Shown here: in pieces, positions 1 to 23,266 of the stretch
Numbering within the stretch: the stretch's first letter is position 1
Layout: the number at the start of each line of letters is the position of its first letter
From: an uncultured bacterium
GTDB lineage: Bacteria > Latescibacterota > Latescibacteria > Latescibacterales > Latescibacteraceae
Length of the DNA: 43,259 nucleotides
Reading direction: 5' to 3'
Assembly (NCBI GenBank): GCA_964400815.1
Contig: CAYNWJ010000002.1
Coordinates: forward strand, 1-43,259
The notes under the pieces: model-generated
Databases searched by the model: none
Told to the model about the DNA's origin: nothing
What the model saw: the letters and a program-made list of their open reading frames with translations, nothing else
Program-made: the position numbers and the translations under genes

Positions 1-1879
1 CCGGCACAAGATTGTCATTTTCGTTTGTATCGGTTCTATTGTTACCATTCCTGTCCAATCCCGGGAATATTCCGTTTCTGTCACGGACATCCGAGAAAAT
101 ATGGAAATCAGGGAAACGGTCTTTGTCGTCATTGTCATCGACCGTGCTGATCATCATCGTATTCGCCATGAAACCAGCTGAGTCCGATGAACCTGACGGG
201 GTCTCATGACCACCCTGGAGACTGACGTCGTCGTGGAAATACGGCGTCCAGGAGTGCAGGGGAATCGACTTCATGGCAAAATATGACGGATCTGTGTTCT
301 CATACGTTGTCGAATACTGAGGATCGATATTGAAATACTCACCACCGATCTGGAATTTGCCGAACGTACGTTTCAAATTGATATAGTACGCATCGGAATT
401 CGTATTGAACTTCTTGGCGTCGTTATGCATGAATTGCCGGAATTTCAAATTCTTGTTGTATTCCGCGACGAATTCGAAATCCTTCACATCTGCATCGACT
501 CTGAAGCCCATAAGCATATTTGCCGTTTCCTGGCCATGCCGAAACTTCACCCAACCAAGATTTGACATGTCCTTTACATTTCCAGGCGCCTCGCGGGCTA
601 CATAAAAATAGGTGGCGTTCTTCTGGGTGTTGGTATTGTGTTCGTCGTGATAGATCTCTGATATGCTGAACTTATAATCATTTCCAACAAGAGACCTGAA
701 TTCTACATCGTTTACCTCTATAGGATCACCCGCAAGATTTGTCTTGGGCATTTCAAACCAGAACTGGAGATAATCCGATCCGTTGACCTCAAGATACTTC
801 TCGTTGCTGTCAGTGACAAGGGACTCCCTATACATATCAACGATATTTGTGGCGTTCTGGTTCCATCCCGCCGATATTTTGTCCCGCCTCATCAGAAAAT
901 TCTTGGGAAGTCGTTTCGATTCGGCATTGTCGAACTTTATATACTGCGGTATTCTGCGGGGATCCATGAAATATCTGTTTTGATACAGATCTTTAGCGGG
1001 ATTGTCCTGCAATGCGCGAACCTCGGTGAAATCGCGCTCCCAGCTTCCCTTGGTTATCCCGACGAGAATGTCCGGACGCCTCTCTCCATTAACAACGGGA
1101 ATCAACTCGTACATCCGGGGTCCACCGCCGTCGAACCTGCTTCCGTCCTCGAACTTGACAACCAGCATTTCCACATCATTGGGGTTCCATGGAATCGTGC
1201 CGGTAATCGAATTCTTCTGGCGCGATTGTGAACTGTCCGAACGATAAGAGTTGACATAGTTCGCCGCCACATTGAATATACCGACTTTCCGTTCATAGTG
1301 CGCACCCGTCATGTACACGGGAAGCAGCCTGTGGCGCAGTTCGTCGTTCACATAGTCACGTGAGAACCAGAGAGGAAGGTCTGCCCTGGAACTGATAAAG
1401 GTGAAATAGTTCTGCTTGATATCGAAATCCCAGCGAATACCGTTCAGGGCCGCCATGTCGACTGTCAACGGCGAGAATTTCACACGGATCTCATTTCCCA
1501 CGATAAACCGTGTCGAAAATGACTTCTGGGTTTCATGAACGACAACGAGATTATTCAAATACTGACGAAAGTACTCGCCCTCGTCGATCTCGTTCGTTTT
1601 GTTGATGGTACTGTATTTTTCTCCGGCCTTCGTATGGCGTGAGTTGATCTTTTCCTCATTCCAGTTGAAGACACGGACACCATCCATGATATAATTACCG
1701 AAACTGTCATATTTCGGGTTGGCCTGACGGTTGATAACCGAACGGCCGTATTTGTGATACCCTGTACGTGCATAATTTTCCGGTTCCATGCCAGGTTTGA
1801 ACAACAGCTGGCTGAATGCCGTCCCATGCACCGATAGCAGGAGAAGTACTCCTGTTACAATGTGCGACCATCGTTTCAT
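1..1879 (-). CDS. Large secreted, predicted outer-membrane protein; paralog of the 1928..4888 product. N-terminal >=626 codons only, because the gene runs off the window start.
   Basis: Absent from the ORF track because it has no stop in the window. My reverse-complement translation from ATG at 1879-1877 reads MKRWSHIVTGVLLLLSVHGTAFSQ (signal peptide) and stays open down to position 2 (last codons ..NLVP). It aligns by eye with the 986-aa neighbour: AYYINLKRTFGKFQIGGEYFNIDPQY vs AWFVNAEKTFGDWSVGAELFNYPNEY, VDDNDDKDRFPD vs IDDNDDDDHLPQ, and NGIRWDFDIKQNYFTFISSRADLPLW vs GGFRWDASSRKNNVSLVASAGDRPLY. Confidence 0.8.
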   Translation of the reverse strand, partial: MKRWSHIVTGVLLLLSVHGTAFSQLLFKPGMEPENYARTGYHKYGRSVINRQANPKYDSFGNYIMDGVRVFNWNEEKINSRHTKAGEKYSTINKTNEIDEGEYFRQYLNNLVVVHETQKSFSTRFIVGNEIRVKFSPLTVDMAALNGIRWDFDIKQNYFTFISSRADLPLWFSRDYVNDELRHRLLPVYMTGAHYERKVGIFNVAANYVNSYRSDSSQSRQKNSITGTIPWNPNDVEMLVVKFEDGSRFDGGGPRMYELIPVVNGERRPDILVGITKGSWERDFTEVRALQDNPAKDLYQNRYFMDPRRIPQYIKFDNAESKRLPKNFLMRRDKISAGWNQNATNIVDMYRESLVTDSNEKYLEVNGSDYLQFWFEMPKTNLAGDPIEVNDVEFRSLVGNDYKFSISEIYHDEHNTNTQKNATYFYVAREAPGNVKDMSNLGWVKFRHGQETANMLMGFRVDADVKDFEFVAEYNKNLKFRQFMHNDAKKFNTNSDAYYINLKRTFGKFQIGGEYFNIDPQYSTTYENTDPSYFAMKSIPLHSWTPYFHDDVSLQGGHETPSGSSDSAGFMANTMMISTVDDNDDKDRFPDFHIFSDVRDRNGIFPGLDRNGNNRTDTNENDNLVP

Positions 1880-1927
1880 GTTGATCCCTTCACTTGTTAT
1901 CCGTTATCACTCGTATTCAACACGCTA

Positions 1928-4888
1928 TTAATTCGAGGCCTCGGACTGAAGTGTGATGAAATACTCCGTCGCGCCGGGGTCCTTCTTACTGATATCGTGA
2001 ATATATTTCTGCTTCGAAAACCGTACACCCGCCATAACGAGCAGATTGAATCCTTCATAGAGCGTCTGGTTCTCGAACGCGACAATCAGACGCCGCCTGT
2101 CGTAATCATAGAGCTTTCCTGCCGACTGAGTCCGGGTGCGATACATCTCCGGGAAGCCGGGGAAGCCCTGGATGCCAAGGCGAAGAAGAGTTTTCGGTGC
2201 AACACGGTAATCGAATCTGATAATCGGATAAACCTGCAAGGTACGTGTCTTTCTGTCGTACTTGTGGATATCGTAATTGTTGGGACGGCTGTAACTGTAG
2301 GTATGCACAACCTTGATCATCGGCATGAGCTTCATTTCCTTGATGCGTTTCTCACGCCAGAGACGAACGCCGAAAAGGCGAACCGAGGGAAGCACCCGCG
2401 CATCAGCGACACGGAGCGTATAATCGGCCTTGTGCTCGAGACCGTAATTATAGCCGCCATAGCGCTTGATACGTTCGTTTCCATTGTAGATTTGAAGAAG
2501 ATTCTGAATGTTCTCTTCCTCTGTGCCGTCCGTTCTACGCTGGTCGCCGACCTGATAGGATGTCGAGAACCGGGCATTGTTGATGATGTTCATATTTGGA
2601 ATCATGGTGAACCTGGTCGACAGAGTATTTGATGTCGTCCAGTTGTTTATCAGGTTATGATTCCCCTCATCGAGATTATAATCATCCTTGATTCGTTCCG
2701 TCCTGTTGTAGAAAAGGAACTCGCCGATACCAGGAAGCCTCTGGAAATGCTCGAATTTCATGTAACGGGTGAAGTTCCGTCCGCCCAGATATTCCTGCTT
2801 GACATCATAATGACCAAATGTGAGAATCGTGGAAAGTTTCGGCCGTACTTTCAGGAAGTAATGTTGGCCTTTCGAATCGCGGTCATACGGAAGGTCGATC
2901 TGGGCGTCGTTCTCCCGGCTGTCGATGGTGCCGTTGTGATTGAAATCGTCGCCGATCGAGATATGATCATAGAAATAACTGAGATACTCCTCATTGTTCC
3001 ATGTCGTGTCGACCATGCGATCGAAATCAGCATCGCCGTATCTCACGAGATTGTCATATGAAGAGGAATTATACGTTCCCGACGCACTGTCGTATTGGGG
3101 CAGGTGGTCGTCATCATCGTTGTCGTCGATGGGCGCCCAATATTGCATGTACTCGTTGGGATAATTGAAGAGTTCGGCGCCGACACTCCAGTCGCCGAAG
3201 GTCTTTTCGGCGTTCACGAACCATGCGCGCGAGGTGTATTCGTTCTTCGCGGCGCCGCTGAGTTTATCGTTCAAGGGATATGACCAGAACGTATTGTTCT
3301 CGTTGAACTCAGCCCTGACGAACAATCCACGCCAGTCAAGCTCCATGTTCATGCCGTACACGTTCATGCCGGTGATACGGTCATATTCGACGCGAACCCA
3401 CTTCTGGTTCGAACCGTCCTTGACATTGCCGGGAGCTTTTGCACAATGCTTCTGGTCATATGAAGCGATACTCCAGTTTCCCTTCCATGAATCGCTGAGA
3501 GGCTCGTCATACCAGTCGGCCTCGCTGTCCATGCGATGGCTGTAGAGAGGTGCAATCAAATCAATACAGTAATCGTTGGCGGCAAGAACATCGAACTTGA
3601 GCTTGCGCGTTCCATTGGGAACGAGAAATTCATACACGACAAGGTCGCTGTTCTTCGCCTCCAGGTAGCCCTGGGACATATCAGCCTTGAACATGCGTTT
3701 TCTGTCACTTGGATCGTCCGGATCCCACATCTCGTTTGGATCGAGAAGACTGAGATATCCCACAGCGCCCGTTTCACCGCTCTTGTGGAAAAGGTCGTTG
3801 AGAATACGGGAGTTCATCAGGTCCAGAAGCCAGGAACCACGATTGTTACGATCCTGGGAAACATCCCTGTGCAGAAAGTCCGAAGAAGTTCCAACATAGT
3901 GACTGAACACATACTGCTTCTGGAATTCGCCCTGATAATAGCGTTTTCTGTGAAACATGTCGGAAATACGGAACACGCGTCCCTTGACAGGATATTCCTC
4001 GCCCTTGAATGCGATTTTTTCCTGTTTTCCGTTTATGTATGCCCGAACATCATAAACCATGGCGCCGGGACCTTGATCCTCGGGAGAATCATCAGTCACC
4101 ATGATATAGATGTAACGGGGTTCGTCCTTGATGATCGTGGAACTCGTGAGATCGGATCCATCGATATCCTGGTGGGAATAATCGACCGTCCCACGCTGAC
4201 GAGCGACATATGTGGCGCCGATCTTGAGAATATCGCCGAGCACACTCTGCCAGTGAACGCCGTACAGCGGGCGGTCGCCGGCGGAAGCCACGAGAGACAC
4301 ATTGTTTTTCCTTGACGAGGCATCCCAGCGGAATCCTCCGAAATTGGTCTGTTTCAGAGTGGACGGCGTAAAGAACGTCCTGATCCCTCGACCGTAACCG
4401 CCGGACTGTCCGCCATTGGCGATAATGAACTTGGTCTGCCAGTTCGAGAATTCGTCCGAAGCAATCATGAGATTGTTGAACACTCTGTTCGACCAACGAT
4501 CATCCTGCCATTCCTCGGCGCCCAGTTTCGAACGATTCCATGTCATCGTATAAATCTCGCCGCCGGGCAGAAGGAAATTGCCAAACTGATCGTAGGTGAC
4601 GGGGGATACGGGGCCGCGTTTGACGATATTATCGACATATTCGACAGCCGAATGTCCCTCCTCGAGCTTACGGGCCCGCGGATACCGCCGCATATCGTAC
4701 GTACCGAAATTCTCATATCGGTCGAACCATCGCGGCCGGTATTCCTTGGATAGAAAAGTCTGCGACCAATACCTGCGCTCCGTTACAATTTGCGCCGAGG
4801 CAGATTGCATCAAGATCAGGAGCGCGATACCGGGTATCACAGCACTTTTAACCAGATCTCTCAAAATTTTCCCTGTATTCATCGGCAC
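1928..4888 (-). CDS. Giant (986 aa) secreted, predicted beta-barrel outer-membrane protein of unknown family
   Basis: Long ORF with a GTG start at 4888 (ATG alternative at 4882) and AGGA 8 nt upstream. Signal peptide VIPGIALLILMQSASAQ. Alternating hydrophobic beta-strand pattern towards the C-terminus (RLIVAFENQTLYEGFNLLVMAGVRF). Asp/Asn-rich calcium-loop-like motifs (DDNDDDD, DDFNHNGTIDSRENDAQID). I recognise no catalytic motif. Confidence 0.85.
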   Translation of the reverse strand: MPMNTGKILRDLVKSAVIPGIALLILMQSASAQIVTERRYWSQTFLSKEYRPRWFDRYENFGTYDMRRYPRARKLEEGHSAVEYVDNIVKRGPVSPVTYDQFGNFLLPGGEIYTMTWNRSKLGAEEWQDDRWSNRVFNNLMIASDEFSNWQTKFIIANGGQSGGYGRGIRTFFTPSTLKQTNFGGFRWDASSRKNNVSLVASAGDRPLYGVHWQSVLGDILKIGATYVARQRGTVDYSHQDIDGSDLTSSTIIKDEPRYIYIMVTDDSPEDQGPGAMVYDVRAYINGKQEKIAFKGEEYPVKGRVFRISDMFHRKRYYQGEFQKQYVFSHYVGTSSDFLHRDVSQDRNNRGSWLLDLMNSRILNDLFHKSGETGAVGYLSLLDPNEMWDPDDPSDRKRMFKADMSQGYLEAKNSDLVVYEFLVPNGTRKLKFDVLAANDYCIDLIAPLYSHRMDSEADWYDEPLSDSWKGNWSIASYDQKHCAKAPGNVKDGSNQKWVRVEYDRITGMNVYGMNMELDWRGLFVRAEFNENNTFWSYPLNDKLSGAAKNEYTSRAWFVNAEKTFGDWSVGAELFNYPNEYMQYWAPIDDNDDDDHLPQYDSASGTYNSSSYDNLVRYGDADFDRMVDTTWNNEEYLSYFYDHISIGDDFNHNGTIDSRENDAQIDLPYDRDSKGQHYFLKVRPKLSTILTFGHYDVKQEYLGGRNFTRYMKFEHFQRLPGIGEFLFYNRTERIKDDYNLDEGNHNLINNWTTSNTLSTRFTMIPNMNIINNARFSTSYQVGDQRRTDGTEEENIQNLLQIYNGNERIKRYGGYNYGLEHKADYTLRVADARVLPSVRLFGVRLWREKRIKEMKLMPMIKVVHTYSYSRPNNYDIHKYDRKTRTLQVYPIIRFDYRVAPKTLLRLGIQGFPGFPEMYRTRTQSAGKLYDYDRRRLIVAFENQTLYEGFNLLVMAGVRFSKQKYIHDISKKDPGATEYFITLQSEASN

Positions 4889-4914
4889 TATCTATCCTGT
4901 CGTTTTGGCATTTT

Positions 4915-5880
4915 TCAGAATGAAACTCCGAATGATACAAAATGACGACCGCCGGAATTCGAAAGCGCGATCGGCAGATTGTAAGCGTAATCGAACACCA
5001 TCGAGCCGAAATTATACCCGAGGCCGAAATCGAAGTCCGTACGTTCGACATCGTCTTCGAAATCGCTGCCATAGATGACACCGCCCCTGAGCTTGAGGCT
5101 CGTACCGGTTACACCTGATTCGACACCACCGCGTAATATGGTTTCGCCGTTGACGAATGCCACATCGACTTCACCGAGAACCTCGCCGCGCTGGGCCATG
5201 AGGCCAAGGCCCACTTCAATGGGGAGTTTTCCGCCGTCGTCACCCGATTCGGAAATGTTCGGCATGATTGCGTCCCGAATATAGAGACCGGTCGCGAAAT
5301 CGGCGAGGCCGAACAGTTCACCGAGAGCATACGACGCGCTCAGGTCAAGGGAGAAGGAAACTTTCGAAAGATCGTCATCGCTTTTTCCGGAATAGGGATC
5401 ATCCTGGCCTTCGATCGCCCAGCGGAGTACCTTTATGTTTCCGCCGAGGGCGAAACGCTCGCCAAGGGTGGTGCCGTATGCCGCGCTGATGACCATCTCG
5501 TTTGCGCCGTCGGCGCCGAGACCGGATATGCCGAATCCGAGCCCGCTTGATTCACCGAGAGGATTCACATACGTGAGCTGATATTTCATCAGGTCGCTTG
5601 TGATCGTCGGGTTGAGCATGCCATAGGCAAGACCCACGCTCCTGTTGCTGATTGCGGAAAGTCCCGCCGGATTGTAGAAATATCCGGCTGCGTCGCCGGA
5701 GGATGCGAGGAAAACCTCGCCCATGCCCATGGGCCGCGCCGTTTGACCGGCCGTGTCGAAAAATGCCGCGTTCGCCGTTGCGGCGGAAATAAAGACCAGA
5801 AGAACCGCCACCGCCAGCATGAATCTGGGCCTACTCTGGTGAACCGATCGAGTGATTGCTTTTCTGTTTTTTCCCGTCAT
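4915..5880 (-). CDS. PorV/PorQ/PorP-class (T9SS-associated / UPF0164-like) outer-membrane beta-barrel protein
   Basis: The track ORF 4915..6156 is trimmed to the ATG at 5880 (MTGKNRKAITRSVHQSRPRFMLAVAVLLVFISAATANA signal peptide; alternative ATG at 5820). N-terminal motif ARPMGMGEVFLASSGDAAGYFYNPAGL is typical of PorV/PorQ-like barrels. The C-terminus ..HFVSFGVSF ends in the aromatic OMP beta-signal. Confidence 0.65.
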   Translation of the reverse strand: MTGKNRKAITRSVHQSRPRFMLAVAVLLVFISAATANAAFFDTAGQTARPMGMGEVFLASSGDAAGYFYNPAGLSAISNRSVGLAYGMLNPTITSDLMKYQLTYVNPLGESSGLGFGISGLGADGANEMVISAAYGTTLGERFALGGNIKVLRWAIEGQDDPYSGKSDDDLSKVSFSLDLSASYALGELFGLADFATGLYIRDAIMPNISESGDDGGKLPIEVGLGLMAQRGEVLGEVDVAFVNGETILRGGVESGVTGTSLKLRGGVIYGSDFEDDVERTDFDFGLGYNFGSMVFDYAYNLPIALSNSGGRHFVSFGVSF

Positions 5881-5950
5881 ATCTGATTTACCCGTCCAGT
5901 TTGAAGTTATATAAGATAAAGTAATCGGAAATCTCAAAGCTCTCGATTCG

Positions 5951-8224
5951 TCAGTATCCGACAACAACCGAGCCACTCTCGACCTTCTCACCGTCATCGG
6001 TGTCTGCAACAACCTGGTAGAGATACACACCCGGAGGAACGAGATCACCATCCTCGTCCTTGCCGTCCCAGTATCCCGGCATCTTGCGGGCCCCGCCCTG
6101 ATTGTCACGCTTCTGGTCGTCGGGCACGAACCACGGCCCCGGTTCCAGGTCGCCATCGTAAATTGTCGTCACCAGACTGCCCTTGGTGTCGTAAATCTTG
6201 ATCTTCAGATCAGCGTCGATTTTTGCAAGATTGAACTCGATCACCGTAAAGTCGTTGACATCGTCATCGTTCGGCGTGAACACCTTGGGAACCGCCTTCA
6301 CGTCCGAAAGAACACCCTTGATGATCGAAGAGGTCATGACCGTCCAGGTGCCGAGGTCCCTGTTTTCCCAGACCCTCAGGCCGCCGGCGCCGTCATTGCC
6401 GCTCTCATTGTATACCCACGCGTTGAAATTGTGGATATTTCGAAGCAGTTTGGTTCTGAACGTCACATAAAGTGAATCGGGTCCGGAATTGTCAGTATCC
6501 GTGATCGCGTTCGTAAATTCGATATAGAGCGAATCGGGTGTGGACTGCTTGATATCGACCAGTCCGTTGTTGTCCACGGTCAGTTCCGAATCGGTGTCGG
6601 TGCTGTGGACCGAAACTCCGGAACCGTATCCCGGCGTGGACAGCACGAGATTCTTGATATTCTGACCGGCCTGCAGATCGTAGGAAAGCGTGTAGACGAA
6701 TGTTGTGTCGATACCCATCGCCACACGGTTGGGAACGATATAACCGGAAGCGCCCGCAAGAGGCTGATCCTCTTCGGAATACCTGAAAGCGATCTCCTTG
6801 AGGACCGGCGTCTTGTAAATGTCCTGCGTCTCGAGCTTCGCACGGTATTTGATCATTGACGCGGGCTCGGGTGACTCAAGAGGGAAGGACTTGATGGAAT
6901 ATTCGGAGCTCCAGGGGCTCTCGACGAGCGTTCCCTCAGCACTGTAATAGGCCGTTTTCGTCTGAACCTTGATGTCGGTGCCTTCGGGCATGCTTCCTTC
7001 CCATGAAATGGCATCGAAATTCTTCATGACGTTCGGAAGGCCGAAATCCTCCCAGTTCGATTCATACGCGCCCTCATAGGTGTATCCGACACCATAGATC
7101 ATGATATCGCCGATGATCGGGAATTCCTGACGGGGCTCGGTGATCCTGAACCTGAGATACCGCGCCCACTCGTCGGGAAACTCGACCGTCGCGTAGTCGT
7201 ACCCGCCCTCGTCTGCGTTGGTCACACCGATCTCATGGATGACATTGACCTCTTCCCAGCGGAACTTGTCGAGGGAAATGTCAACCGCGTAACCGCGTAC
7301 CGATTTGCGCTCCCACTCATTGGGGTTCGTGCCGCCGGTGTAGAGAACGAGCCTGTTCACACGGTAGATTCTTTCAAGGTCGACATAGCGCCAGGATCCA
7401 AGCGGCTCCTGATTGTAGGCAAAGAAGGTATTGGTGGGATCGCCGTCCGTCAGCTTGTCTTCCTGGGCGGGCTTGCCCTGGGCGATGTTTTCCCCCTCGA
7501 TCTGGCGAAGCTGAATACCGCCGTTCTCGGCGCTTCCGAGGTCCACATTGCCGACATAGCCGGTGACAACCTCGATGTGCGGATCGGGAAGATAGCTCAA
7601 CTGGCCCATATCCATTTTGCCGAGCATGACCTGCCCGAGCTGTGCCTTAATGCCGGTGTCATCGAGGATGGTGGTCCGGCGGCCGGAATTGTAGCCCAGC
7701 TCATACCAGGTGTCCCCACCCCAATCGGCGCTCGTGATGTCGCCGGAATAATAATACCAGCGAACAGGGAAGATCTCGCGCGTACCGCCGACAACCGCGG
7801 ACCGGCGCTTGAGCGTCGTGGTTCCGAGCCAATCGGCGCCGGCCTTGATATCGACCATGAGACCGTTGCCCAATCCGGTGCCGCTGTTGTGAACCTTGAT
7901 GCCGACAAGAACATCCGCAGCGGAAACGTTTACGGTGTAAGTCTCAACTGTCGTCCAGTCGTCATCCGACCCGACTTCTTCACCATTAATATACAGGGTA
8001 TACTCATCGACGGCGGTGATATTCACCTCGATGTCATCGTACGGAGCGTTCGGCCCGGACAGGTGCGCCATGTAGTAAATGGTGTGAGGCCAGGAAGTCC
8101 ATGTCGAGTCCTTGACAGCCATAACGGCGGCGAAGGAAGGACTTGCAAAAGCACAGAGCATCAGCCCGATTGCCAACAAACTCGCCACATAGATCTTAAT
8201 ACCACTCCTCAATGTAACCTCCAC
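5951..8224 (-). CDS. Secreted multidomain lectin-like protein: N-terminal CBM-like beta-sandwich, F5/8 type C (discoidin) domain, Ig-like region, and T9SS type-B/FlgD-Ig-like C-terminal sorting domain
   Basis: 757-aa ORF with signal peptide IKIYVASLLAIGLMLCAFASPSFAA. The track start is GTG at 8224; a TTG at 8212 sits 5 nt after GGAGG and may be the true start. Domain motifs: YTLYINGEEVG (CBM-like), WRYVDLERIYRVNRLVLY...ARYLRFRITEP...IMIYGVGY (discoidin), and C-terminal VFTPNDDDVNDFTVIEF...IKIYDTKGSLV...WDGKDEDGDLVPPGVYLYQV (CTD). No catalytic motif seen. Confidence 0.8.
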   Translation of the reverse strand: MEVTLRSGIKIYVASLLAIGLMLCAFASPSFAAVMAVKDSTWTSWPHTIYYMAHLSGPNAPYDDIEVNITAVDEYTLYINGEEVGSDDDWTTVETYTVNVSAADVLVGIKVHNSGTGLGNGLMVDIKAGADWLGTTTLKRRSAVVGGTREIFPVRWYYYSGDITSADWGGDTWYELGYNSGRRTTILDDTGIKAQLGQVMLGKMDMGQLSYLPDPHIEVVTGYVGNVDLGSAENGGIQLRQIEGENIAQGKPAQEDKLTDGDPTNTFFAYNQEPLGSWRYVDLERIYRVNRLVLYTGGTNPNEWERKSVRGYAVDISLDKFRWEEVNVIHEIGVTNADEGGYDYATVEFPDEWARYLRFRITEPRQEFPIIGDIMIYGVGYTYEGAYESNWEDFGLPNVMKNFDAISWEGSMPEGTDIKVQTKTAYYSAEGTLVESPWSSEYSIKSFPLESPEPASMIKYRAKLETQDIYKTPVLKEIAFRYSEEDQPLAGASGYIVPNRVAMGIDTTFVYTLSYDLQAGQNIKNLVLSTPGYGSGVSVHSTDTDSELTVDNNGLVDIKQSTPDSLYIEFTNAITDTDNSGPDSLYVTFRTKLLRNIHNFNAWVYNESGNDGAGGLRVWENRDLGTWTVMTSSIIKGVLSDVKAVPKVFTPNDDDVNDFTVIEFNLAKIDADLKIKIYDTKGSLVTTIYDGDLEPGPWFVPDDQKRDNQGGARKMPGYWDGKDEDGDLVPPGVYLYQVVADTDDGEKVESGSVVVGY

Positions 8225-8420
8225 TCGAATAATCCGGAATTGGACATTATTCCCTTCGGGAAATTTTTGTTGTTCTCGATTCGCACCGAAAAAAACATGT
8301 TCAACTCAAGCCAATGGCTTTGAGCATCACCCCCTTAAAAAACCCGAAGGCCTGATTATGTAATAGAAAAATATGTAATTACTATAGCTTACGTCCCTAT
8401 CTTTTATAAATGTTGAACTT

Positions 8421-8449
8421 ATGATAAACACTCAATCAAAGTATGTCAA
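8421..8449 (-). promoter_or_regulatory. Candidate sigma70-type promoter (TTGACA-17 nt-TATCAT) for the 8224->1 operon
   Basis: The minus strand reads cTTGACAtactttgattgagtgttTATCATaag. The -35 is at 8444-8449, the -10 at 8421-8426, with a 17-nt spacer. It lies about 190 nt upstream of the 757-aa start. Confidence 0.4.
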
Positions 8450-8810
8450 GCCAAAAAATGCTGCGGCGCTTAATATTTCAAGGCGTATCACTGCGCTACC
8501 GAAATACGGGCCGATTCAGTTTTTCTATACATTAAATGTTGCGATTCTGCAGAGGAAAGAGAGTGTCCAAAACAACCAAACGACACTTTGAAAAGCTCCA
8601 CGAATACTCCATTGGCTTAATTTATTGCACGTTATCAGCCAACACAAGAAAAAAAACAGAAATATTCAATTTTGTTTTCAGCCATTCTCACTCAACACGT
8701 TCAGAGGCGAAGCCCATGGGACCGGCTGATTTCCGAAACATGGAAGCTTCATCCATTCAATGCGCGGCGCGCACTCCCAAGCCAATCTAATTATGTAAAT
8801 CACTTTTTTC

Positions 8811-8839
8811 ATAATGCGTTTGTTTTCACAATCTGTCAA
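8811..8839 (-). promoter_or_regulatory. Second candidate sigma70-type promoter (TTGACA-17 nt-CATTAT), far upstream of the operon
   Basis: The minus strand reads cTTGACAgattgtgaaaacaaacgCATTATgaa. The -35 is at 8834-8839, the -10 at 8811-8816, with a 17-nt spacer. It lies about 580 nt upstream of the next minus-strand CDS and just downstream of the 8883 stop. Confidence 0.3.
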
Positions 8840-8882
8840 GAAAAATTTCTTTCCCCGCTATCCGCACACGTACATCATCTCC

Positions 8883-10166
8883 TCAAGCCCTTTCAGACTC
8901 TTCACGGGCGATCCGGCACCAGGTCCTTACATTTTCAGGATTTCCGCCGATGGTATGATTGTCTTTCATGATGACTTCCAGATGATTGGCGCGGCATGTT
9001 TCCATCGCTGATCTCAGGTCCCTTCTGATGTGATCCGTATCGACCACCGGTACCGCGAGATCGGTGGGCAGAGGTTTCAGGGAATAGATATGGTCGCCGC
9101 CGAGCTGCTCCGCCATAACACGCCGGTCCGCCCAGGGCGAAACGGACACGCGGCGAAGTCCCGGGATCTTCCTGACGAAACGCCACCGCTCGTCCAGCGC
9201 CTCGCAGCAGCCGTAACAGTTGCGTCCGAAACGCTGCATTATCGGCAGTTGATAGGGGAAAATGAATTCCCCGAACATGTCCGGGGACCATGTCGAGGTC
9301 TCCTGGCTTTCGCAAAAGCCCCACATGTCGCATGTCCGGACAGTTTCCCCGTCGAATCCGCCGCCGGGCAGGTCACGGGTCCAGCCGAAACCGCCGGACC
9401 CCACATACGTCCCGTCATTGTTCAGGCTCAGAAGTCCATTTTGCTCGAGAAAATCGAGCCGGGCCAGCGTGCCGTCGCGAAGGAAGCCCATCAGACGTTT
9501 CAGGTCGTCCGGATGATCATAGACATCGTACATGATCTGTCCGAGTCCGCGGATGTTGACCAGCGTCCATGTCATGCCCAGCGTCCACCACCATGTCCCC
9601 CGGCGCTTGACCGCGAGGATCCCCCCCATGACATCCTCAGCAAGGGAGAGAATCCGAGCGCTCGCATCACGGTCGACCGTTATGCGTGGAAAGCGGAGTT
9701 TGTCGAAATCATCGTAGCTCGAAAGCGGCGCCTCCCACACATAGGACCCGCCGCCCGTGCCGCCGATCTTCCGTTCATGCATGCCCCAGTCGGTTTCAAA
9801 ATATATCCATGGAACAGCGAACAGAGGCTCCACCACACGGTCGTCGCCCATGGATTCTCCCCAGAACACTTCCTTCCTGAGCGAGAATTCCCATTCGCGG
9901 GCCAGCATGCCCGTACACGTCAGATCCCCGGGGGGTATTATCTCGTTCCATCCGTTCTCGGGATCGCAGAATATCAGGGGACGCGTGGGTTCGAGCGCGT
10001 TGTGGGCATACCAGAGCCTGCGCTTCTCCTCCTCCTCCGGCCGGGCGGCCAGTTCTGCGACCCGACGGGCGAGTTCGCGCAGGATGGTCCTGTCGCCGTC
10101 GCTGATCGTCATATGCCCGGGGTCTATCGTGCCAGTGGATAATGCCGCCTGGGTCTGGTCCGCCAT
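8883..10166 (-). CDS. Uroporphyrinogen-decarboxylase (URO-D)/MtaA-like TIM-barrel family protein, function unknown
   Basis: 427-aa ORF with ATG at 10166 preceded by GAGGTG 6 nt upstream. The C-terminal half matches the URO-D-family pattern by eye: WSPDMFGEFIFPYQLPIMQRFG, NCYGCCE, GLRRVSVSPWAD, LGGDHIYSLKPLPTDL, IMKDNHTIGGNPENVRTWCRIARE. No signal peptide. Confidence 0.5.
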   Translation of the reverse strand: MADQTQAALSTGTIDPGHMTISDGDRTILRELARRVAELAARPEEEEKRRLWYAHNALEPTRPLIFCDPENGWNEIIPPGDLTCTGMLAREWEFSLRKEVFWGESMGDDRVVEPLFAVPWIYFETDWGMHERKIGGTGGGSYVWEAPLSSYDDFDKLRFPRITVDRDASARILSLAEDVMGGILAVKRRGTWWWTLGMTWTLVNIRGLGQIMYDVYDHPDDLKRLMGFLRDGTLARLDFLEQNGLLSLNNDGTYVGSGGFGWTRDLPGGGFDGETVRTCDMWGFCESQETSTWSPDMFGEFIFPYQLPIMQRFGRNCYGCCEALDERWRFVRKIPGLRRVSVSPWADRRVMAEQLGGDHIYSLKPLPTDLAVPVVDTDHIRRDLRSAMETCRANHLEVIMKDNHTIGGNPENVRTWCRIAREESERA

Positions 10167-20874: not shown

Positions 20875-21419
20875 AACAGTCGGACGGTACGGTCGCCATT
20901 CGTCCCCTGGAGCTCGGGGACCTGGACCGGGTTCTTTCGTGGATCAGGGATCCCCTCATCATGCGGCGCATCGGCCTGCATGGGGAGCGAACGATGGAAT
21001 CGCAAGAGCGCTGGTTCCGGGGGATGGTGGATGACGAACACCGCCAGGTCTGGGCCATCGAGCTGGTAGAATCGAATCGCCACATCGGGAACATATCGCT
21101 CTATGACATCGATCGCCTGCACGCGCATGCCGGGATAGCCATATTCATCGGGGATAGGGAGCTTCGGGGGGCGGGTTACGGGAAACGGGCCTTGAGGCTC
21201 ATGCTCGATCATGTCTTCCAAACCATGGGGCTCCACCGCGTCTATTGCAAGACCGAGGCGTCGTTCGAGGGGACAATCGATTTCTACGAGTCTCTCGGGT
21301 TCACCCGCGAGGGGACGCTTCGTGAGCATGAACACTTCGATGGCGCTTATACGGACAAGGTCGTGTTCGGCCTGCTCGACAGGGAGTTCATCCCGGACAG
21401 CCGGCCGGACCGGACGTGA
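20871..21419 (+). CDS. GNAT N-acetyltransferase (RimJ/RimL-PseH-like)
   Basis: Track ORF trimmed to ATG 20871, which overlaps the ATP-grasp stop (ATGA). IRPLELGDLDRVLSWIRDP...ERWF resembles amino-sugar N-acetyltransferases of the PseH type. Acetyl-CoA loop RGAGYGKRAL. Confidence 0.8.
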   Translation: MKQSDGTVAIRPLELGDLDRVLSWIRDPLIMRRIGLHGERTMESQERWFRGMVDDEHRQVWAIELVESNRHIGNISLYDIDRLHAHAGIAIFIGDRELRGAGYGKRALRLMLDHVFQTMGLHRVYCKTEASFEGTIDFYESLGFTREGTLREHEHFDGAYTDKVVFGLLDREFIPDSRPDRT

Positions 21420-21466
21420 AACGGGCGGCACGGGTAAAAGCTAACTGTCAGCTCAAGGATACATAC

Positions 21467-23266
21467 ATGGCGGGAAAATCGAAAAAACGGCGAAAGAAAA
21501 ACGAACCGGCCGCGCCACCACGGCCGAAGAACCCCCTTTCGACGAAAATCCAGAGCGTCATGACACGCTTTCCGCCGGTCGTTGTCGCGTTGTTCATCAT
21601 CGGCATCCTCTTTCTTGTTCAGGGGATATTCTTCGTTTCCTCCTTCCAGACGAATGATGACATCGGGATGCTGTTCATCGCATCGGGTAACGGCTCCAGC
21701 ATCGAACCGGACGAGCATCTGAGATACACCCACGTGTTCATAGGCTTTGTTCTCAAATATCTCTATTCGCAGACGCAGGCAATTCCCTGGTACGGATTGT
21801 ACCAGTATTTCCTCCATTTCATCTCCATGGTCGCCCTCGCATACGCCGTCATCGACAAGGATGGATCGGCAAGGAGACTCCTGTTCCTCCTGCTCTATCT
21901 CTTCTTCGTCGAATTGTTCCTTCTCAACAACATGCAATACACCATCACCGCCTGTATCGCGGCGCAGAGCGGTGTTTTCCTGTTCTTCAACGGCTTGTCG
22001 AAAGACACCCGGGGCAGGTGGGTCTCATATGCCGCCGCCATCTTCCTGCTGATTGCGTCCGCTCTCGTGCGGACGAACGGGTTTTTCCTGATGATGCTCA
22101 TATCGCTGCCGATCCTCTCGATAAGCGTCTGGAGGAACCGTAACGACCGCGGAATGATTCGCGATTTCATCGGGTTCTGGTTCATCGTCTCCATCGCCGT
22201 TTTCGGGCTCAGGACCTTTGAAAGACAGTATTACAGAAGCGACCCGGCGTGGGCCGAGTTTTTCACCTTCAGCAAATTGAAATCGCGGTTCATCGACTAC
22301 GACCACATTGAGTACAACGAGGAAACGAAGCACATATTCGATGATGCGGGATGGAGCAGGAACGACCTGTTCCTCATGCGGTCGTGGTTCCATGCCGACG
22401 AGGACCTGTTCAGTGTCGATAAGCTCGAATCAATTTCATCTCAATTCCCCTCATTCAAGACATATCTCTCCATCGGCGAGGTGTTCGGCACTGTCACGGA
22501 CAAAATCCTGGACCAGTGGTTCATGGTGCTTCTCGCGGTGTTCTTCATGCTCTATCTGCGGGGAGGGGAAAAAGGTAATCGCGCATATATCCTCGCCACG
22601 CTTGCCCTGATATTCGCCGTATTTCTCTACCTGCTGGTGGCGAGGCAGCTGCCGAACCGTGTAATTCAGCCGGTCCTCTCCTTTCTCCTGGTGGCGGCGA
22701 TGTATTTCAGCTCACGCGAGCTTGAACAGTTTTCACCGGTGAGAAAGATCGTCAATACCGCCATGATAGGGGGAATCTGCATCGCCCTCCTGTTCTTTTT
22801 GAGCGAACAACACCGTGAAAGCGCGGACAAGATCGCGGCGAACCGGCAGTTCAAGAACACGGTCGGGGAACTGGACCCCTCGCCGGACGATCTCTATGTT
22901 ATCTGGGGCTCGGTCCCGTGGGAAAGCATTCTCCCCTTCGACACCCTCGATTTCATGCGGGACTGGAAGCTGGTCCTGCTCGGCACGACCCTCCGGACAC
23001 CCATAACGAAGGCCCGTCTGGCGGAATTCGGCATCGACAACATCTACCGCGCCCTGTACGAACGGCCCAATGTGTTCATCGTGACAAGGAACCGGCGGTA
23101 CCTGTATTTCTATTCCCAATATGTCCTTGAGCATTTCGGTGAGAACCTGCAATTCCAATATGTCTTCAGAAGCCCCGAATTCTATGTCACACAGGTCTAT
23201 CCCGACGCCGATTCCCAGGAGGAAGATCCCCCGGATGATATCTATCTCAACGATCCCTACAATTAG
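21467..23266 (+). CDS. Large polytopic membrane protein, GT-C-fold-like glycosyltransferase candidate (family unrecognised)
   Basis: Track ORF trimmed to ATG 21467 (AAGGAT 7 nt upstream). Polybasic N-terminus MAGKSKKRRKKNEP. At least 9 hydrophobic helices by eye. An acidic NDD motif follows TM1 (SSFQTNDDIGM), as in the first extracytoplasmic loop of GT-C enzymes. About 170-aa soluble C-terminal domain. Confidence 0.6.
   Translation: MAGKSKKRRKKNEPAAPPRPKNPLSTKIQSVMTRFPPVVVALFIIGILFLVQGIFFVSSFQTNDDIGMLFIASGNGSSIEPDEHLRYTHVFIGFVLKYLYSQTQAIPWYGLYQYFLHFISMVALAYAVIDKDGSARRLLFLLLYLFFVELFLLNNMQYTITACIAAQSGVFLFFNGLSKDTRGRWVSYAAAIFLLIASALVRTNGFFLMMLISLPILSISVWRNRNDRGMIRDFIGFWFIVSIAVFGLRTFERQYYRSDPAWAEFFTFSKLKSRFIDYDHIEYNEETKHIFDDAGWSRNDLFLMRSWFHADEDLFSVDKLESISSQFPSFKTYLSIGEVFGTVTDKILDQWFMVLLAVFFMLYLRGGEKGNRAYILATLALIFAVFLYLLVARQLPNRVIQPVLSFLLVAAMYFSSRELEQFSPVRKIVNTAMIGGICIALLFFLSEQHRESADKIAANRQFKNTVGELDPSPDDLYVIWGSVPWESILPFDTLDFMRDWKLVLLGTTLRTPITKARLAEFGIDNIYRALYERPNVFIVTRNRRYLYFYSQYVLEHFGENLQFQYVFRSPEFYVTQVYPDADSQEEDPPDDIYLNDPYN

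What the first reader, a model, noticed from the sequence alone, without database searches (positions are those of the whole stretch)
1..8224. Four-gene envelope operon: CTD-tagged lectin-like cargo, PorV/PorQ-like barrel and two giant paralogous barrel-like proteins
Four co-directional genes are separated by gaps of only 70, 26 and 48 nt, and all four carry signal peptides. The first gene encodes carbohydrate-binding modules (a CBM-like sandwich and a discoidin domain) plus a T9SS-style C-terminal domain, with no catalytic motif. The second encodes a small beta-barrel with the GMG...NPAGL motif of PorV/PorQ-type T9SS shuttle or adaptor proteins. In Flavobacterium johnsoniae, type-B CTD cargo such as SprB is encoded next to a cognate PorP/SprF-like barrel. 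Here that pair is extended by two proteins of about 1000 aa that I cannot assign to any family. Together they look like a dedicated, self-contained surface-display or adhesion module rather than a housekeeping operon.
Basis: partly seen in the sequence, partly recalled or inferred. Interest (0 to 1): 0.75.

Follow-up and report, generated by a model that had tools for sequence, protein, structure and literature searches.

The report
Outer-membrane half of a motor-coupled envelope machine
The four genes are real, but they are only the first part of an undescribed 11-gene cluster of the candidate phylum Latescibacterota that links a sugar-binding surface protein and giant outer-membrane barrels of a new family to a proton-driven motor in the inner membrane.

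Summary
There are four co-directional minus-strand genes with gaps of 70, 26 and 48 nt, and each starts with a signal peptide. G1 (757 aa) is a non-catalytic chain of beta-sandwich domains: a lectin-like module, a discoidin/CBM32-like module and a C-terminal CHU_C/FlgD-Ig domain. G2 (about 301-321 aa) is a distant PorV/PorQ-family barrel. G3 (986 aa) and G4 are 22%-identical paralogs of a family with no Pfam or NCBIfam model. AlphaFold2 models G3 as a very large barrel of roughly 26-30 strands.

The "four-gene operon" is an artefact of the contig end, which cuts G4 at residue 626. In every close relative examined the cluster continues: G4 (~970 aa), a 1,100-aa TPR protein, DUF5683, a small lipoprotein, ExbB, ExbD, ExbD, and a membrane-anchored DUF4159 protein with TonB/TolA-like topology.

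Variants of the module occur in about 80 fetched loci of Latescibacterota-like genomes, often several per chromosome, usually with three barrels and without G2.

My best reading is that these genes encode the outer-membrane half of a Ton/Tol-like motor-coupled envelope machine, most likely for glycan capture and uptake.

Whether the genome has T9SS core genes could not be tested. No description was found in the searched literature.

The parts
5951..8224 (-). G1: secreted 757-aa non-catalytic protein made of about five beta-sandwich domains, ending in a T9SS-style C-terminal domain (NCBI's gene call is 753 aa)
   Evidence: ORF. Pfam hits. AlphaFold2 pLDDT 87, pTM 0.73, all-beta. Foldseek matches multi-Ig/fn3 proteins, PorU and CBM32. 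Homologs are named 'gliding motility-associated C-terminal domain-containing protein' or 'discoidin domain-containing protein'.
8129..8224 (-). G1 signal peptide (residues 1-32, ...AFASPSFA|AV)
   Evidence: Read directly from the sequence. Modelled as a helix at residues 4-26, followed by a low-confidence linker.
7745..8116 (-). G1 N-terminal jelly-roll, lectin-like domain (residues 37-160)
   Evidence: AlphaFold2 strands. The G1-family profile weakly matches solved 'Lectin' chains 6t0q/6kbj (E about 1e-3) and the rhamnosidase 2okx N-terminal domain.
7136..7465 (-). G1 discoidin (F5/8 type C, CBM32-like) domain (residues 254-363)
   Evidence: PF00754 at 37.6 bits and PF22633 at 31.3 bits, both above their cut-offs. 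Foldseek hit to CBM32 4lks, TM 0.59 on the target. Profile hit to 4lks.
5954..6310 (-). G1 C-terminal Ig-like domain (residues 639-757), CHU_C / FlgD_ig type (T9SS type-B-like)
   Evidence: PF13585 CHU_C at 38.8 bits, above the cut-off of 27, but covering only model positions 3-42. TIGR04131 at 23.1 bits, below its cut-off of 35. The ortholog in L074 covers CHU_C positions 3-84 of 86. Modelled as a seven-strand sandwich with an insert.
4915..5880 (-). G2: small outer-membrane barrel, a distant member of the PorV/PorQ/PorP superfamily (321 aa from ATG 5880; NCBI's call is 301 aa)
   Evidence: NF033709 at 71.7 bits, E 7.6e-20 (cut-off 90). PF19572 PorV at 27.8 bits (cut-off 27). TIGR03519 PorP/SprF at 21.9 bits. 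All 37 family members hit NF033709. The family profile hits only PorV 6h3i_F in the PDB, E 5e-4. The protein ends ...FVSFGVSF and has no Cys after the signal peptide.
1928..4888 (-). G3: giant outer-membrane beta-barrel (986 aa) of an unnamed family, the position-1 paralog
   Evidence: No Pfam, NCBIfam or PDB sequence hit. AlphaFold2 pLDDT 75, pTM 0.72, with about 26-30 long strands plus an inserted domain at about residues 232-473. The best Foldseek hits are 26-30-strand barrels (SlpA 8ae1 E 1.5e-8, LptD, MtrB), all at TM 0.25 or below. 119 homologs were found, named only as hypothetical proteins where a name is given.
4577..4594 (-). Conserved N-terminal motif YDQFGN of G3 (residues 99-104), just before the first barrel strand. 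It is shared by all barrel paralogs.
   Evidence: D100 is nearly invariant and G103 invariant in alignment A1. The motif [YF]D.[FL]GN is found in position-1, -2 and -3 barrels. It lies in a low-pLDDT segment.
2876..3160 (-). Acidic, Asp-rich loop of G3 (residues 577-671; DDNDDDD..., DxDxD-type repeats). Calcium binding is presumed from the motif only.
   Evidence: Conserved D/N columns in A1. Low pLDDT at 601-659. A DDNDD-like run occurs in 150 of 205 barrels.
1..1879 (-). G4: second giant barrel paralog (position-2 type). Only the N-terminal 626 residues are present; about 340 residues are lost at the contig end.
   Evidence: Translation. BLASTP against G3: 22% identity, E 9e-23. It clusters with the general position-2 orthologs. 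Orthologs are 959-977 aa.
8421..8449 (-). Best sigma-70-like promoter match (TTGACA-17-TATCAT, 11 of 12), 197 nt upstream of G1
   Evidence: This is a consensus match only, and the total number of matches in the region is not above the shuffled expectation.
8225..8882 (.). AT-rich (39.7% GC) 658-bp intergenic region separating the cluster from the upstream co-directional gene; probable start of the transcription unit

Best explanation
Bases 1-8224 encode the outer-membrane half of a conserved envelope-spanning machine of about 11 genes, found in Latescibacterota.

**Proposed arrangement (inferred)**
- G3 and G4 are two non-redundant giant barrels of about 26-30 strands. Most other loci have three. 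They form a hetero-oligomeric outer-membrane platform or channel.
- G1 is exported by Sec and ends up on the cell surface. Its Ig-like C-terminal domain is held by the PorV-like barrel G2. In loci without G2, the giant barrels or a shared PorV would hold it.
- G1 presents a lectin-like jelly-roll domain and a discoidin/CBM32-like domain to the outside.
- The genes lost at the contig end complete the machine: a 1,100-aa periplasmic TPR scaffold (CpoB/BamD-like repeats), a DUF5683 membrane protein, a small fn3-like lipoprotein, an ExbB-ExbD-ExbD proton motor, and a bitopic DUF4159 protein.
- The DUF4159 protein has TonB/TolA-like topology (one transmembrane helix, a basic Pro/Lys-rich linker, a globular C-terminal domain) and sits where tonB normally sits.

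**Most likely mechanism (inferred, not shown)**
- Proton-motive force is transmitted across the periplasm to the barrels. A possible contact point is their conserved, unstructured N-terminal YDxFGN segment.
- That force drives the handling of glycans captured by G1, most probably their import. This would be a functional analog of SusC/SusD or TonB-dependent uptake.

**Shown versus inferred**
- Shown: the gene content, the synteny, the domain assignments and the predicted folds.
- Inferred: the complex, the energy coupling and the substrate.
For: **The cluster is larger than four genes**
- The closest relatives (L085 at 84%, L086 at 70%, L001 at 61% and L002 at 59% identity to G3) carry G1-G2-G3-G4-TPR-DUF5683-lipoprotein-ExbB-ExbD-ExbD-DUF4159 (cut after ExbB in L001). 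All genes are co-directional with gaps of 65 nt or less.
- L085 also shares the upstream 428-aa gene and the PIG-L gene with the window.

**The module is conserved**
- 244 stretches in species-representative genomes encode relatives of G3, nearly all from Latescibacterota MAGs.
- Of 59 loci of at least 20 kb, 56 have a G1-like C-terminal-domain protein. 39 have the TPR protein, 39 DUF4159 and 27 ExbB. 56 have at least one of the last three.

**The barrels are non-redundant**
- Position-1, -2 and -3 barrels form separate orthologous groups, as expected for distinct subunits.
- G3 is modelled as a giant barrel.

**Other components**
- The TPR protein scores 242 bits on the tol-pal YbgF model and 171 bits on BamD.
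- The DUF4159 proteins are bitopic, with an Arg-rich N-terminus, one transmembrane helix (often with a His) and a basic linker.
- 34 more distant loci add a lipoprotein with an AgmX/PglI (TonB_C/GltG-like) domain, at 65 bits against a cut-off of 40.
- G1 has lectin-like and CBM32-like domains.

**Hints towards glycan handling**
- There are several modules per chromosome, for example L017/L034/L070 on OZ244561.1.
- Neighbouring genes include GH123, GH130, a rhamnosidase, an SSF transporter, what reads as a sulfatase (by sequence inspection only), and, in the window, PIG-L and a heparinase II/III-like protein.
Against: - No experiment exists, and every organism involved is uncultivated.
- The downstream genes are not in this window. 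Their presence here is inferred from relatives.
- The barrels have no plug domain, no recognisable TonB box and no TonB-dependent-receptor signature.
- No canonical TonB_C domain occurs in the window's clade.
- Catabolic or transporter neighbours are not consistently linked, and these genomes are rich in carbohydrate-active enzymes anyway.
- The AlphaFold2 model of G3 has moderate confidence. Barrel closure and strand number could not be inspected in 3D, and Foldseek TM-scores are low (0.25 or below).
- The C-terminal domain plus a PorV-like protein points as much to secretion or anchoring as to import.
- ExbB/ExbD are absent from many loci within the fetched flanks.
Confidence: 0.55

Rival explanations
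1. G1 is an ordinary T9SS type-B cargo that a canonical T9SS encoded elsewhere secretes. G2 is its cognate PorP/PorV-like carrier and anchors it on the surface. G3/G4 and the downstream Ton-like genes are accessory, or merely adjacent, and the module is a passive adhesion or display unit.
For: - CHU_C scores above the Pfam cut-off in G1, and NCBI names a homolog as a type-B C-terminal-domain protein.
- G2 belongs to the PorV/PorQ/PorP superfamily.
- Published work shows that type-B C-terminal-domain proteins bind adjacent PorP-like carriers (PMC9143113; PMC12618676).
- Type-A C-terminal domains occur in these genomes.
- Some G1 homologs carry PF18962 instead.
- A review states that T9SS may exist in other FCB phyla (PMC11285876).
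Against: - G1-like proteins are tied to the giant barrels in 75 of 82 loci, but to a G2-like barrel in only 12.
- The barrels, TPR protein, DUF4159 and ExbBD travel together across deep divergence of about 25% identity. This is not expected for chance neighbours.
- G2 lacks the SprF Cys-X-Cys tail.
- TIGR04131, NF033709 and TIGR03519 are all below their curated cut-offs.
Confidence: 0.2
2. The module is an autonomous, proton-motive-force-driven outer-membrane secretion or surface-motility machine, analogous to the T9SS or to Myxococcus Agl-Glt. The giant barrels would be the translocon or platform (the SprA or GltABH role). G2 would be the shuttle (PorV role), the TPR protein the periplasmic scaffold (SprE/PorW or GltC/D/E role), and ExbB-ExbD2 with DUF4159 the motor (GldLM or AglRQS with GltG/J role). 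G1 would be its dedicated cargo or adhesin.
For: - The parts correspond one to one with those systems.
- The motor has one ExbB/TolQ-like and two ExbD/TolR-like genes, as in AglR/AglQ/AglS (the comparison rests on my own knowledge).
- A GltG-like AgmX/PglI domain protein occurs in 34 loci.
- The TPR protein gives a sub-threshold hit to PorW/SprE, at 95 bits against a cut-off of 250.
- Barrels this large are otherwise known mainly from machines that pass or sheath large substrates (SprA, LptD, MtrB).
- There is a precedent for TonB-energised protein secretion: Oar/PopC (PMC6434023, listed; abstract only).
Against: - Several complete copies per genome, each serving only one or two conserved C-terminal-domain proteins, would be costly for a secretion system.
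- There is no sequence or close structural similarity to SprA (rank 50, E 6e-3) or to the Glt barrels.
- G1's N-terminal region is conserved between loci, like a subunit and unlike a variable cargo.
- The literature searches run here found no report of gliding in Latescibacterota.
Confidence: 0.17
3. There is no functional unit. The region holds ordinary outer-membrane proteins next to a housekeeping Ton/Tol operon, and a shadow ORF or annotation artefact inflates the picture.
For: - ExbB-ExbD-ExbD-TPR clusters are common housekeeping units in FCB bacteria (my own knowledge).
- The promoter and terminator scans are uninformative.
Against: - All four ORFs have many full-length homologs.
- Gene order is conserved from 84% down to about 25% identity and across about 80 loci.
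- Multiple copies per genome are not what a housekeeping Tol/Ton system shows.
Confidence: 0.05

Closest known systems
T9SS type-B cargo with its PorP/SprF- or PorV-type carrier (F. johnsoniae SprB-SprF; P. gingivalis PG1035-PorP)
   Same: - The secreted protein ends in a CHU_C/FlgD-Ig-type C-terminal domain and is encoded next to a small barrel of the PorV/PorQ/PorP superfamily.
- Neither protein has a catalytic domain.
- A surface-anchoring role is plausible.
   Different: - The curated HMM cut-offs for TIGR04131, NF033709 and TIGR03519 are not reached.
- G2 has no periplasmic Cys-X-Cys tail.
- The carrier is absent from most versions of the module.
- The pair is embedded with giant barrels, a TPR protein and an ExbBD motor.
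- T9SS core genes were not demonstrated for this phylum here.
Ton system with TonB-dependent transporters, including SusC/SusD-type glycan uptake loci of Bacteroidota
   Same: - An ExbB-ExbD(-ExbD) motor is followed by a bitopic protein in the tonB position.
- An outer-membrane barrel is paired with a surface glycan-binding protein built from beta-sandwich/CBM modules, as in SusE/F-type proteins.
- There are several loci per genome.
- Carbohydrate-active genes lie nearby.
   Different: - The barrels have about 26-30 strands, are about 900-1,050 aa long and have no plug domain or TonB box.
- Two to three distinct barrels occur per locus.
- The surface protein is anchored by a C-terminal domain, not a lipid.
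- The TonB-position protein carries DUF4159 instead of TonB_C.
- A 1,100-aa TPR protein is a core member.
Myxococcus Agl-Glt gliding machinery and the related Nfs system
   Same: - One TolQ/ExbB-like and two TolR/ExbD-like genes.
- Very large periplasmic TPR proteins.
- Outer-membrane barrels plus a surface adhesin.
- A GltG-like AgmX/PglI C-terminal domain protein in 34 of the distant loci.
   Different: - No homology between the giant barrels and GltA/B/H.
- No GltI/F/K or CglB counterparts were identified.
- The GltG-like protein is absent from the window's clade.
- The phylum is different and no motility phenotype is known.
Tol-Pal system with CpoB (YbgF)
   Same: - TolQ/TolR-like genes: TolQ is the best NCBIfam match of the ExbB homolog, at 84 bits.
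- A TolA-like bitopic protein.
- The TPR protein is built from about eight CpoB-like units.
- A small lipoprotein is present.
   Different: - No TolB or Pal.
- Multi-copy in the genome.
- Linked to C-terminal-domain proteins and giant barrels.
Giant outer-membrane barrels of known structure (Deinococcus SlpA with 30 strands, LptD and MtrB with 26, SprA with 36)
   Same: - A predicted very large all-beta barrel with long loops or an inserted domain.
- SlpA, LptD and MtrB are the best Foldseek matches (E from 1.5e-8 to 2e-4).
   Different: - TM-scores are 0.25 or below and sequence identity is 6-10%.
- No SLH domain or coiled coil (SlpA), no LptD N-terminal jellyroll, no cytochrome partner.
- SprA ranks only 50th.

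Membership tests
T9SS type-B C-terminal domain (Pfam PF13585 CHU_C / TIGR04131) | HMM match above the curated cut-off, at the extreme C-terminus | tested here: inconclusive
   PF13585 scores 38.8 bits, above the cut-off of 27, but covers only model positions 3-42 of 86. TIGR04131 scores 23.1 bits, below its cut-off of 35. The ortholog in L074 covers positions 3-84 of 86 at 35.3 bits. The domain is C-terminal (residues 639-757).
T9SS type-B C-terminal domain | Ig-like beta-sandwich fold of the C-terminal domain | tested here: met
   The AlphaFold2 model has seven strands between residues 639 and 755, at block pLDDT of about 80-93. The G1-family profile matches fn3/Ig domains of C5a peptidase and FlgD.
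T9SS type-B C-terminal domain | Five conserved motifs A-E needed for secretion in F. johnsoniae (PMC12618676) | not tested
   The motif sequences appear only in a figure that the paper tool does not hold.
T9SS cargo in general | The genome encodes the T9SS core (SprA/Sov, PorK/L/M/N, PorU/V/Z) | not testable with these tools
   None lies in the 43-kb window.
PorV/PorQ family (NF033709, PF19572) | HMM score above the curated cut-off | tested here: inconclusive
   NF033709 scores 71.7 bits against a cut-off of 90, with E 7.6e-20. PF19572 scores 27.8 against 27. All 37 family members hit NF033709 at E of 1e-5 or better. One homolog is named 'PorV/PorQ family protein' by NCBI. The only significant PDB hit of the family profile is PorV 6h3i, E 5e-4.
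PorV/PorQ family | 14-strand FadL-like barrel that docks on the SprA lateral gate | not tested
The partner interaction is not testable in silico here.
PorP/SprF family (TIGR03519) | HMM score above the cut-off | tested here: not met
   21.9 bits against a cut-off of 90.55. 25 of 37 family members give weak hits.
PorP/SprF family | Periplasmic C-terminal tail with a Cys-X-Cys motif that bonds to GldK (SprF and its close homologs, PMC12635249) | tested here: not met
   G2 ends at the barrel (...RHFVSFGVSF) and contains no cysteine after the signal peptide.
TonB-dependent transporter (for G3/G4) | N-terminal plug domain, TonB box and a 22-strand TonB_dep_Rec barrel | tested here: not met
   No Pfam or NCBIfam hit at E of 0.1 or better. 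The model shows no globular N-terminal plug: residues 26-109 are low-confidence coil.
SprA/Sov T9SS translocon (for G3/G4) | Homology to the 36-strand SprA barrel of about 2,400 aa | tested here: not met
   No sequence hit to any PDB chain. Foldseek places 8gl8_A at rank 50, with E 6e-3 and TM 0.18/0.09. The length is 986 aa.
LptD, SlpA or MtrB (for G3/G4) | Family-specific domains and sequence homology | tested here: not met
   The resemblance is limited to a generic large-barrel fold, with TM 0.25 or below and 6-10% identity. No Pfam LptD, SLH or MtrB hits.
Ton/Tol-type motor-coupled system (whole cluster) | ExbB/TolQ and ExbD/TolR genes in the same transcription unit | tested here: met
   Met in the relatives only. 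PF01618 and two PF02472 genes follow co-directionally in L001, L002, L085 and L086. The NCBIfam equivalog cut-offs are not reached. These genes are missing from the window because the contig ends.
Ton/Tol-type motor-coupled system | A TonB/TolA-type transducer with a TonB_C or TolA_C domain | tested here: not met
   The protein in the tonB position has TonB-like topology but a DUF4159 C-terminal domain. Its only solved relative is the uncharacterised protein 4i66. A TonB_C-like AgmX/PglI domain occurs only in distant loci.

The most novel reading that the evidence does not exclude
The giant-barrel module may be a previously unrecognised class of proton-motive-force-driven outer-membrane machine of Latescibacterota and neighbouring FCB lineages. 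It would be an autonomous translocon or transporter. In it, two or three novel barrels of 26-30 strands, a PorV-like shuttle, a 1,100-aa TPR scaffold and an ExbBD motor with a DUF4159 'TonB analog' would move either the proteins bearing the C-terminal domain outwards (a T9SS analog without SprA/PorKLMN) or large glycans inwards (a SusCD analog without a TonB-dependent transporter).
Probability: 0.3. Interest if true: 0.9.

Novelty: new variant of a known kind. Interest (0 to 1): 0.68.

Why it matters
- Secretion, gliding and high-molecular-weight nutrient uptake in the FCB superphylum are understood almost entirely from Bacteroidota (T9SS, SusCD). Latescibacterota are widespread, uncultivated polysaccharide degraders, and nothing is known about how their outer membrane handles large substrates. 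The one genomic study read here invoked only "non-specific porins" (PMC4454575).
- This cluster shows that they carry, often in several copies, a conserved machine that recombines familiar parts with a new family of giant barrels. The familiar parts are a T9SS-style C-terminal domain, a PorV-like barrel and a Ton/Tol-like motor. The barrel family has 897 representative clusters among 1.84 billion proteins and no Pfam model.
- The work gives DUF4159 and DUF5683 a genomic context. It suggests a TonB-like role for DUF4159 proteins, and it defines concrete protein pairs for structure prediction and biochemistry.
- If the module proves to be an autonomous transporter or translocon, it would be a new envelope system. 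If not, it is at least a new architecture for motor-coupled outer-membrane complexes.

Tried and rejected
- **Exact-sequence look-up of G3.** It found nothing when I used the GTG start. The deposited gene call starts two residues later (P0001, 984 aa).
- **Sequence search of the G3 family against the PDB.** Only noise was returned.
- **Known barrel families for G3/G4.** TonB-dependent transporter, SprA, LptD and SlpA were all considered and rejected.
- **FadL as the identity of G2.** Pfam Toluene_X is below its cut-off (24.7 bits against 29.7). The family profile does not reach any FadL structure, whereas it does reach PorV.
- **SprF-type coupling of G2 to a gliding track.** Rejected because the Cys-X-Cys tail is missing.
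- **Literature.** Searches for Latescibacteria with T9SS or type IX secretion, and for DUF4159 or DUF5683, found nothing relevant. The Latescibacteria genome paper does not mention the cluster.
- **RNA features.** The Rfam and tRNA scans of the window were empty.
- **Promoter and terminator scan.** The counts are not above the shuffled expectation.
- **A distant barrel homolog.** P0062 (L003) sits in an unrelated context: a 281-aa gene, a 442-aa gene with a faint PQQ hit, then the barrel. Solitary family members therefore exist, and not every homolog marks a module.
- **Inserted domain of G3.** I could not decide whether it faces outwards or inwards.

Full report
**1. What is in the sequence**

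Bases 1-8224 carry four genes on the minus strand.
- G1 runs 8224..5951 (757 aa).
- G2 runs 5880..4915 (321 aa from the first ATG; NCBI aa).
- G3 runs 4888..1928 (986 aa; NCBI aa).
- G4 runs 1879..1. It runs off the contig end after 626 residues.

Each protein begins with a typical Sec signal peptide with an AxA-like cleavage site. I judged this by reading the sequence, not with a predictor.

A 658-bp AT-rich spacer (39.7% GC) separates G1 from the next co-directional gene. The best sigma-70-like match of the region lies in this spacer, 197 nt upstream of G1, but this is only a consensus match. The window is the whole deposited contig of 43,259 bp, so G4 is truncated at the source.

**2. The four proteins**

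*G1*
- Pfam F5_F8_type_C covers residues 254-363 and CHU_C covers 645-686, both above their cut-offs. FlgD_ig covers 719-743 just below its cut-off. TIGR04131 is below its cut-off.
- AlphaFold2 with a 51-sequence alignment gives a confident model (pLDDT 87, pTM 0.73) of about five beta-sandwich domains with no catalytic domain.
- Foldseek returns multi-Ig/fn3 proteins, PorU and CBM32 modules.
- The family profile weakly matches solved lectins with its N-terminal domain. It matches a CBM32 with the discoidin domain, and fn3/FlgD domains with the C-terminal domain.
- NCBI names homologs [quoted passage not shown] or "discoidin domain-containing protein". A few homologs carry the type-A domain PF18962 instead.

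*G2*
- It contains the GMG...NPAGL motif, and that stretch aligns to F. johnsoniae PorV.
- It scores 71.7 bits (E 7.6e-20) on the PorV/PorQ model NF033709 (cut-off 90) and 27.8 bits on Pfam PorV (cut-off 27). It gives weak scores on PorP/SprF and FadL models.
- All 37 family members tested hit NF033709, and 25 also hit PorP/SprF.
- The only significant PDB hit of the family profile is PorV 6h3i.
- G2 has no cysteine after the signal peptide and no tail after the barrel. It therefore lacks the Cys-X-Cys tail that ties SprF to the gliding track (PMC12635249).

*G3 and G4*
- Neither has a Pfam, NCBIfam or PDB sequence match.
- They are paralogs at 22% identity, E 9e-23.
- AlphaFold2 of G3 (54 sequences; pLDDT 75, pTM 0.72) is all-beta, with roughly 26-30 long strands. 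It has an inserted domain at about residues 232-473 and a disordered acidic loop at 577-671.
- The best Foldseek matches are the largest known outer-membrane barrels: SlpA, LptD and MtrB. TM-scores are 0.25 or below, and SprA ranks only 50th.
- I conclude that they are giant outer-membrane barrels of a new family.
- A conserved [YF]D.[FL]GN motif lies in the unstructured N-terminal segment of all paralogs.

**3. The unit is larger than four genes**

Homologs of G3 are labelled, where a source names an organism, almost all Candidatus Latescibacteria/Latescibacterota, and none has a functional name.

In L085 (84% identity to G3), L086 (70%), L001 (61%) and L002 (59%) the same four genes are followed, co-directionally and with gaps of 50 nt or less, by seven more genes:
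- The rest of G4, which is 959-977 aa in full.
- A TPR protein of about 1,100 aa. It scores 242 bits on the tol-pal YbgF model and 171 bits on BamD.
- A DUF5683 membrane protein.
- A lipoprotein of 137-158 aa. The L074 ortholog (148 aa) gives a weak fn3 match.
- ExbB/TolQ.
- Two ExbD/TolR genes.
- A protein of about 415 aa with a C-terminal DUF4159 domain.

L085 even shares the window's upstream 428-aa and PIG-L genes. The window's genome therefore almost certainly carries the same 11-gene cluster.

The DUF4159 proteins are bitopic. They have an Arg-rich N-terminus, one transmembrane helix (often containing a His) and a basic Pro/Lys-rich linker, followed by the globular domain. This is TonB/TolA topology, in the position that tonB normally occupies. 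That reading is an inference. The only solved relative is an uncharacterised Haliangium protein, 4i66.

**4. Distribution and variants**

- A scan of one genome per species found 244 stretches encoding relatives. The 79 loci kept are nearly all Latescibacterota MAGs, with a few labelled Gemmatimonadota or Handelsmanbacteria. Several loci often lie on one chromosome.
- I mapped reference proteins onto 82 loci.
  - A G1-like C-terminal-domain protein sits beside the barrels in 75 of the 82.
  - The TPR protein is present in 45, DUF4159 in 42, ExbB in 34 and DUF5683 in 26.
  - A G2-like barrel is present in only 12.
  - Three barrels per locus is the rule (54 loci). The window's layout of two barrels plus G2 is a minority variant.
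- The barrels fall into orthologous groups by position. G4 belongs to the general position-2 group, and G3 to a divergent position-1 group of 8 loci. This argues for distinct, non-redundant subunits.
- Distant loci add three further components:
  - A protein of 615-640 aa with a type-A-like C-terminal domain (48 loci; TIGR04183 at 26.3 bits against a cut-off of 23).
  - A 167-aa lipoprotein (35 loci).
  - A lipoprotein of about 413 aa with an AgmX/PglI (TonB_C/GltG-like) domain (34 loci; 65 bits against a cut-off of 40).
- The barrel family has 897 representative clusters (E of 1e-3 or better) among 1.84 billion proteins.

**5. Interpretation**

What is shown is the gene content, the synteny, the domain matches and the predicted folds. 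The rest is inferred.

The most economical reading is an envelope-spanning machine with three layers:
- An inner-membrane ExbB-ExbD2 motor with a TonB/TolA-like DUF4159 transducer.
- A very large periplasmic TPR scaffold.
- An outer-membrane platform of two or three giant barrels. This platform holds a lectin-like surface protein through its Ig-like C-terminal domain, here with the help of a PorV-like barrel.

I favour glycan capture and energised uptake, analogous in logic to SusCD or TonB-dependent transport, for these reasons:
- The surface subunit is built from CBM/lectin-type modules.
- The module is multi-copy.
- The neighbours are often carbohydrate-active.
- The organisms are predicted polysaccharide degraders (PMC4454575).

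Against this reading:
- The barrels have no plug or TonB box.
- The linkage to catabolic genes is loose.
- The C-terminal domain plus PorV-like pair fits a secretion, anchoring or motility function equally well.

**6. Rivals**

It explains G1-G2. It does not explain the deep co-conservation of barrels, TPR protein, DUF4159 and ExbBD, nor the rarity of G2.

(b) An autonomous secretion or gliding machine, analogous to the T9SS or Agl-Glt, is attractive because its parts map one to one. It is uneconomical as a multi-copy system serving one or two conserved proteins.

(c) Chance adjacency is excluded by the synteny.

The key unknown is whether these genomes have T9SS core genes. None is in the window, and I could not scan the genome. 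A review notes that T9SS may exist in other FCB phyla (PMC11285876).

**7. Novelty**

Full-text searches found no paper linking Latescibacteria to the T9SS, and none describing DUF4159 or DUF5683 in such a context. The parts are of known kinds: a C-terminal sorting-type domain, a PorV-like barrel, a Ton/Tol-like motor and a TPR scaffold. The giant barrels are a new family and the combination is undescribed. I rate it a new variant of a known kind, namely motor-coupled outer-membrane complexes. There is a realistic chance, about 0.3, that it is a new class of transporter or translocon.

Noticed in passing
window 1-8224 compared with 8883-43259: The cluster has lower G+C than the rest of the contig: G4 0.473, G3 0.507, G2 0.559 and G1 0.555, against 0.604 for the rest. 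The spacer at 8225-8882 is 0.397. This could reflect the Asn/Tyr/Lys/Asp-rich composition of outer-membrane proteins, or a foreign origin.
   Followed up: partly
window 8883-10166 (-): A 427-aa ORF with no Pfam hit lies directly upstream of the cluster. Together with the neighbouring PIG-L gene, it is conserved in the same position in the closest relative (L085, 428 aa), but not in more distant ones.
   Followed up: partly
window 10347-33022: This is a block of glycan and envelope-modification genes. It holds a PIG-L deacetylase, a beta-helix protein (686 aa), a 1,117-aa heparinase II/III-like protein, an M20 peptidase, a GT2 and an ATP-grasp enzyme. It also holds two LPG_synthase_TM proteins, a methyltransferase, a DegT aminotransferase, two epimerase/dehydratases and an SDR. 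The large ORFs at 21416-23266 (616 aa) and 27383-29191 (602 aa) have no Pfam hit.
   Followed up: no
L018:5727-7574, L021:2852-4147, L026:2582-3070 (and the equivalent genes in 34-48 loci): Distant versions of the module carry three extra conserved genes that the window's clade lacks. One is a 615-640-aa protein with a type-A-like (TIGR04183/FlgD_ig) C-terminal domain. One is a lipoprotein of about 413 aa with an AgmX/PglI (GltG/TonB_C-like) domain. One is a 167-aa lipoprotein.
   Followed up: partly
L010:21835-24435; L077:14734-18900: DUF4159 genes are tandemly duplicated in some loci. L010 has two copies with near-identical N-terminal regions, and L077 has three. L077 has barrels but no G1-like or TPR hits.
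   Followed up: no
proteins P0312 and P0328 (homologs of G1): Some G1 homologs end in a type-A T9SS domain (PF18962 Por_Secre_tail) instead of CHU_C. The C-terminal domain type seems to be exchangeable on the same N-terminal body.
   Followed up: no
L003 (OZ244235.1, around 3.17 Mb): A 912-aa member of the barrel family sits outside any module, after a 281-aa gene and a 442-aa gene with a faint PQQ-repeat hit. Solitary giant barrels therefore also exist.
   Followed up: no
loci L023, L026, L029-L032, L034, L082: In one sub-type of the module the ExbB-ExbD pair lies about 6-8 kb upstream on the opposite strand. No TPR or DUF4159 gene is seen within the fetched flanks, so the module's composition and order are plastic.
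   Followed up: no
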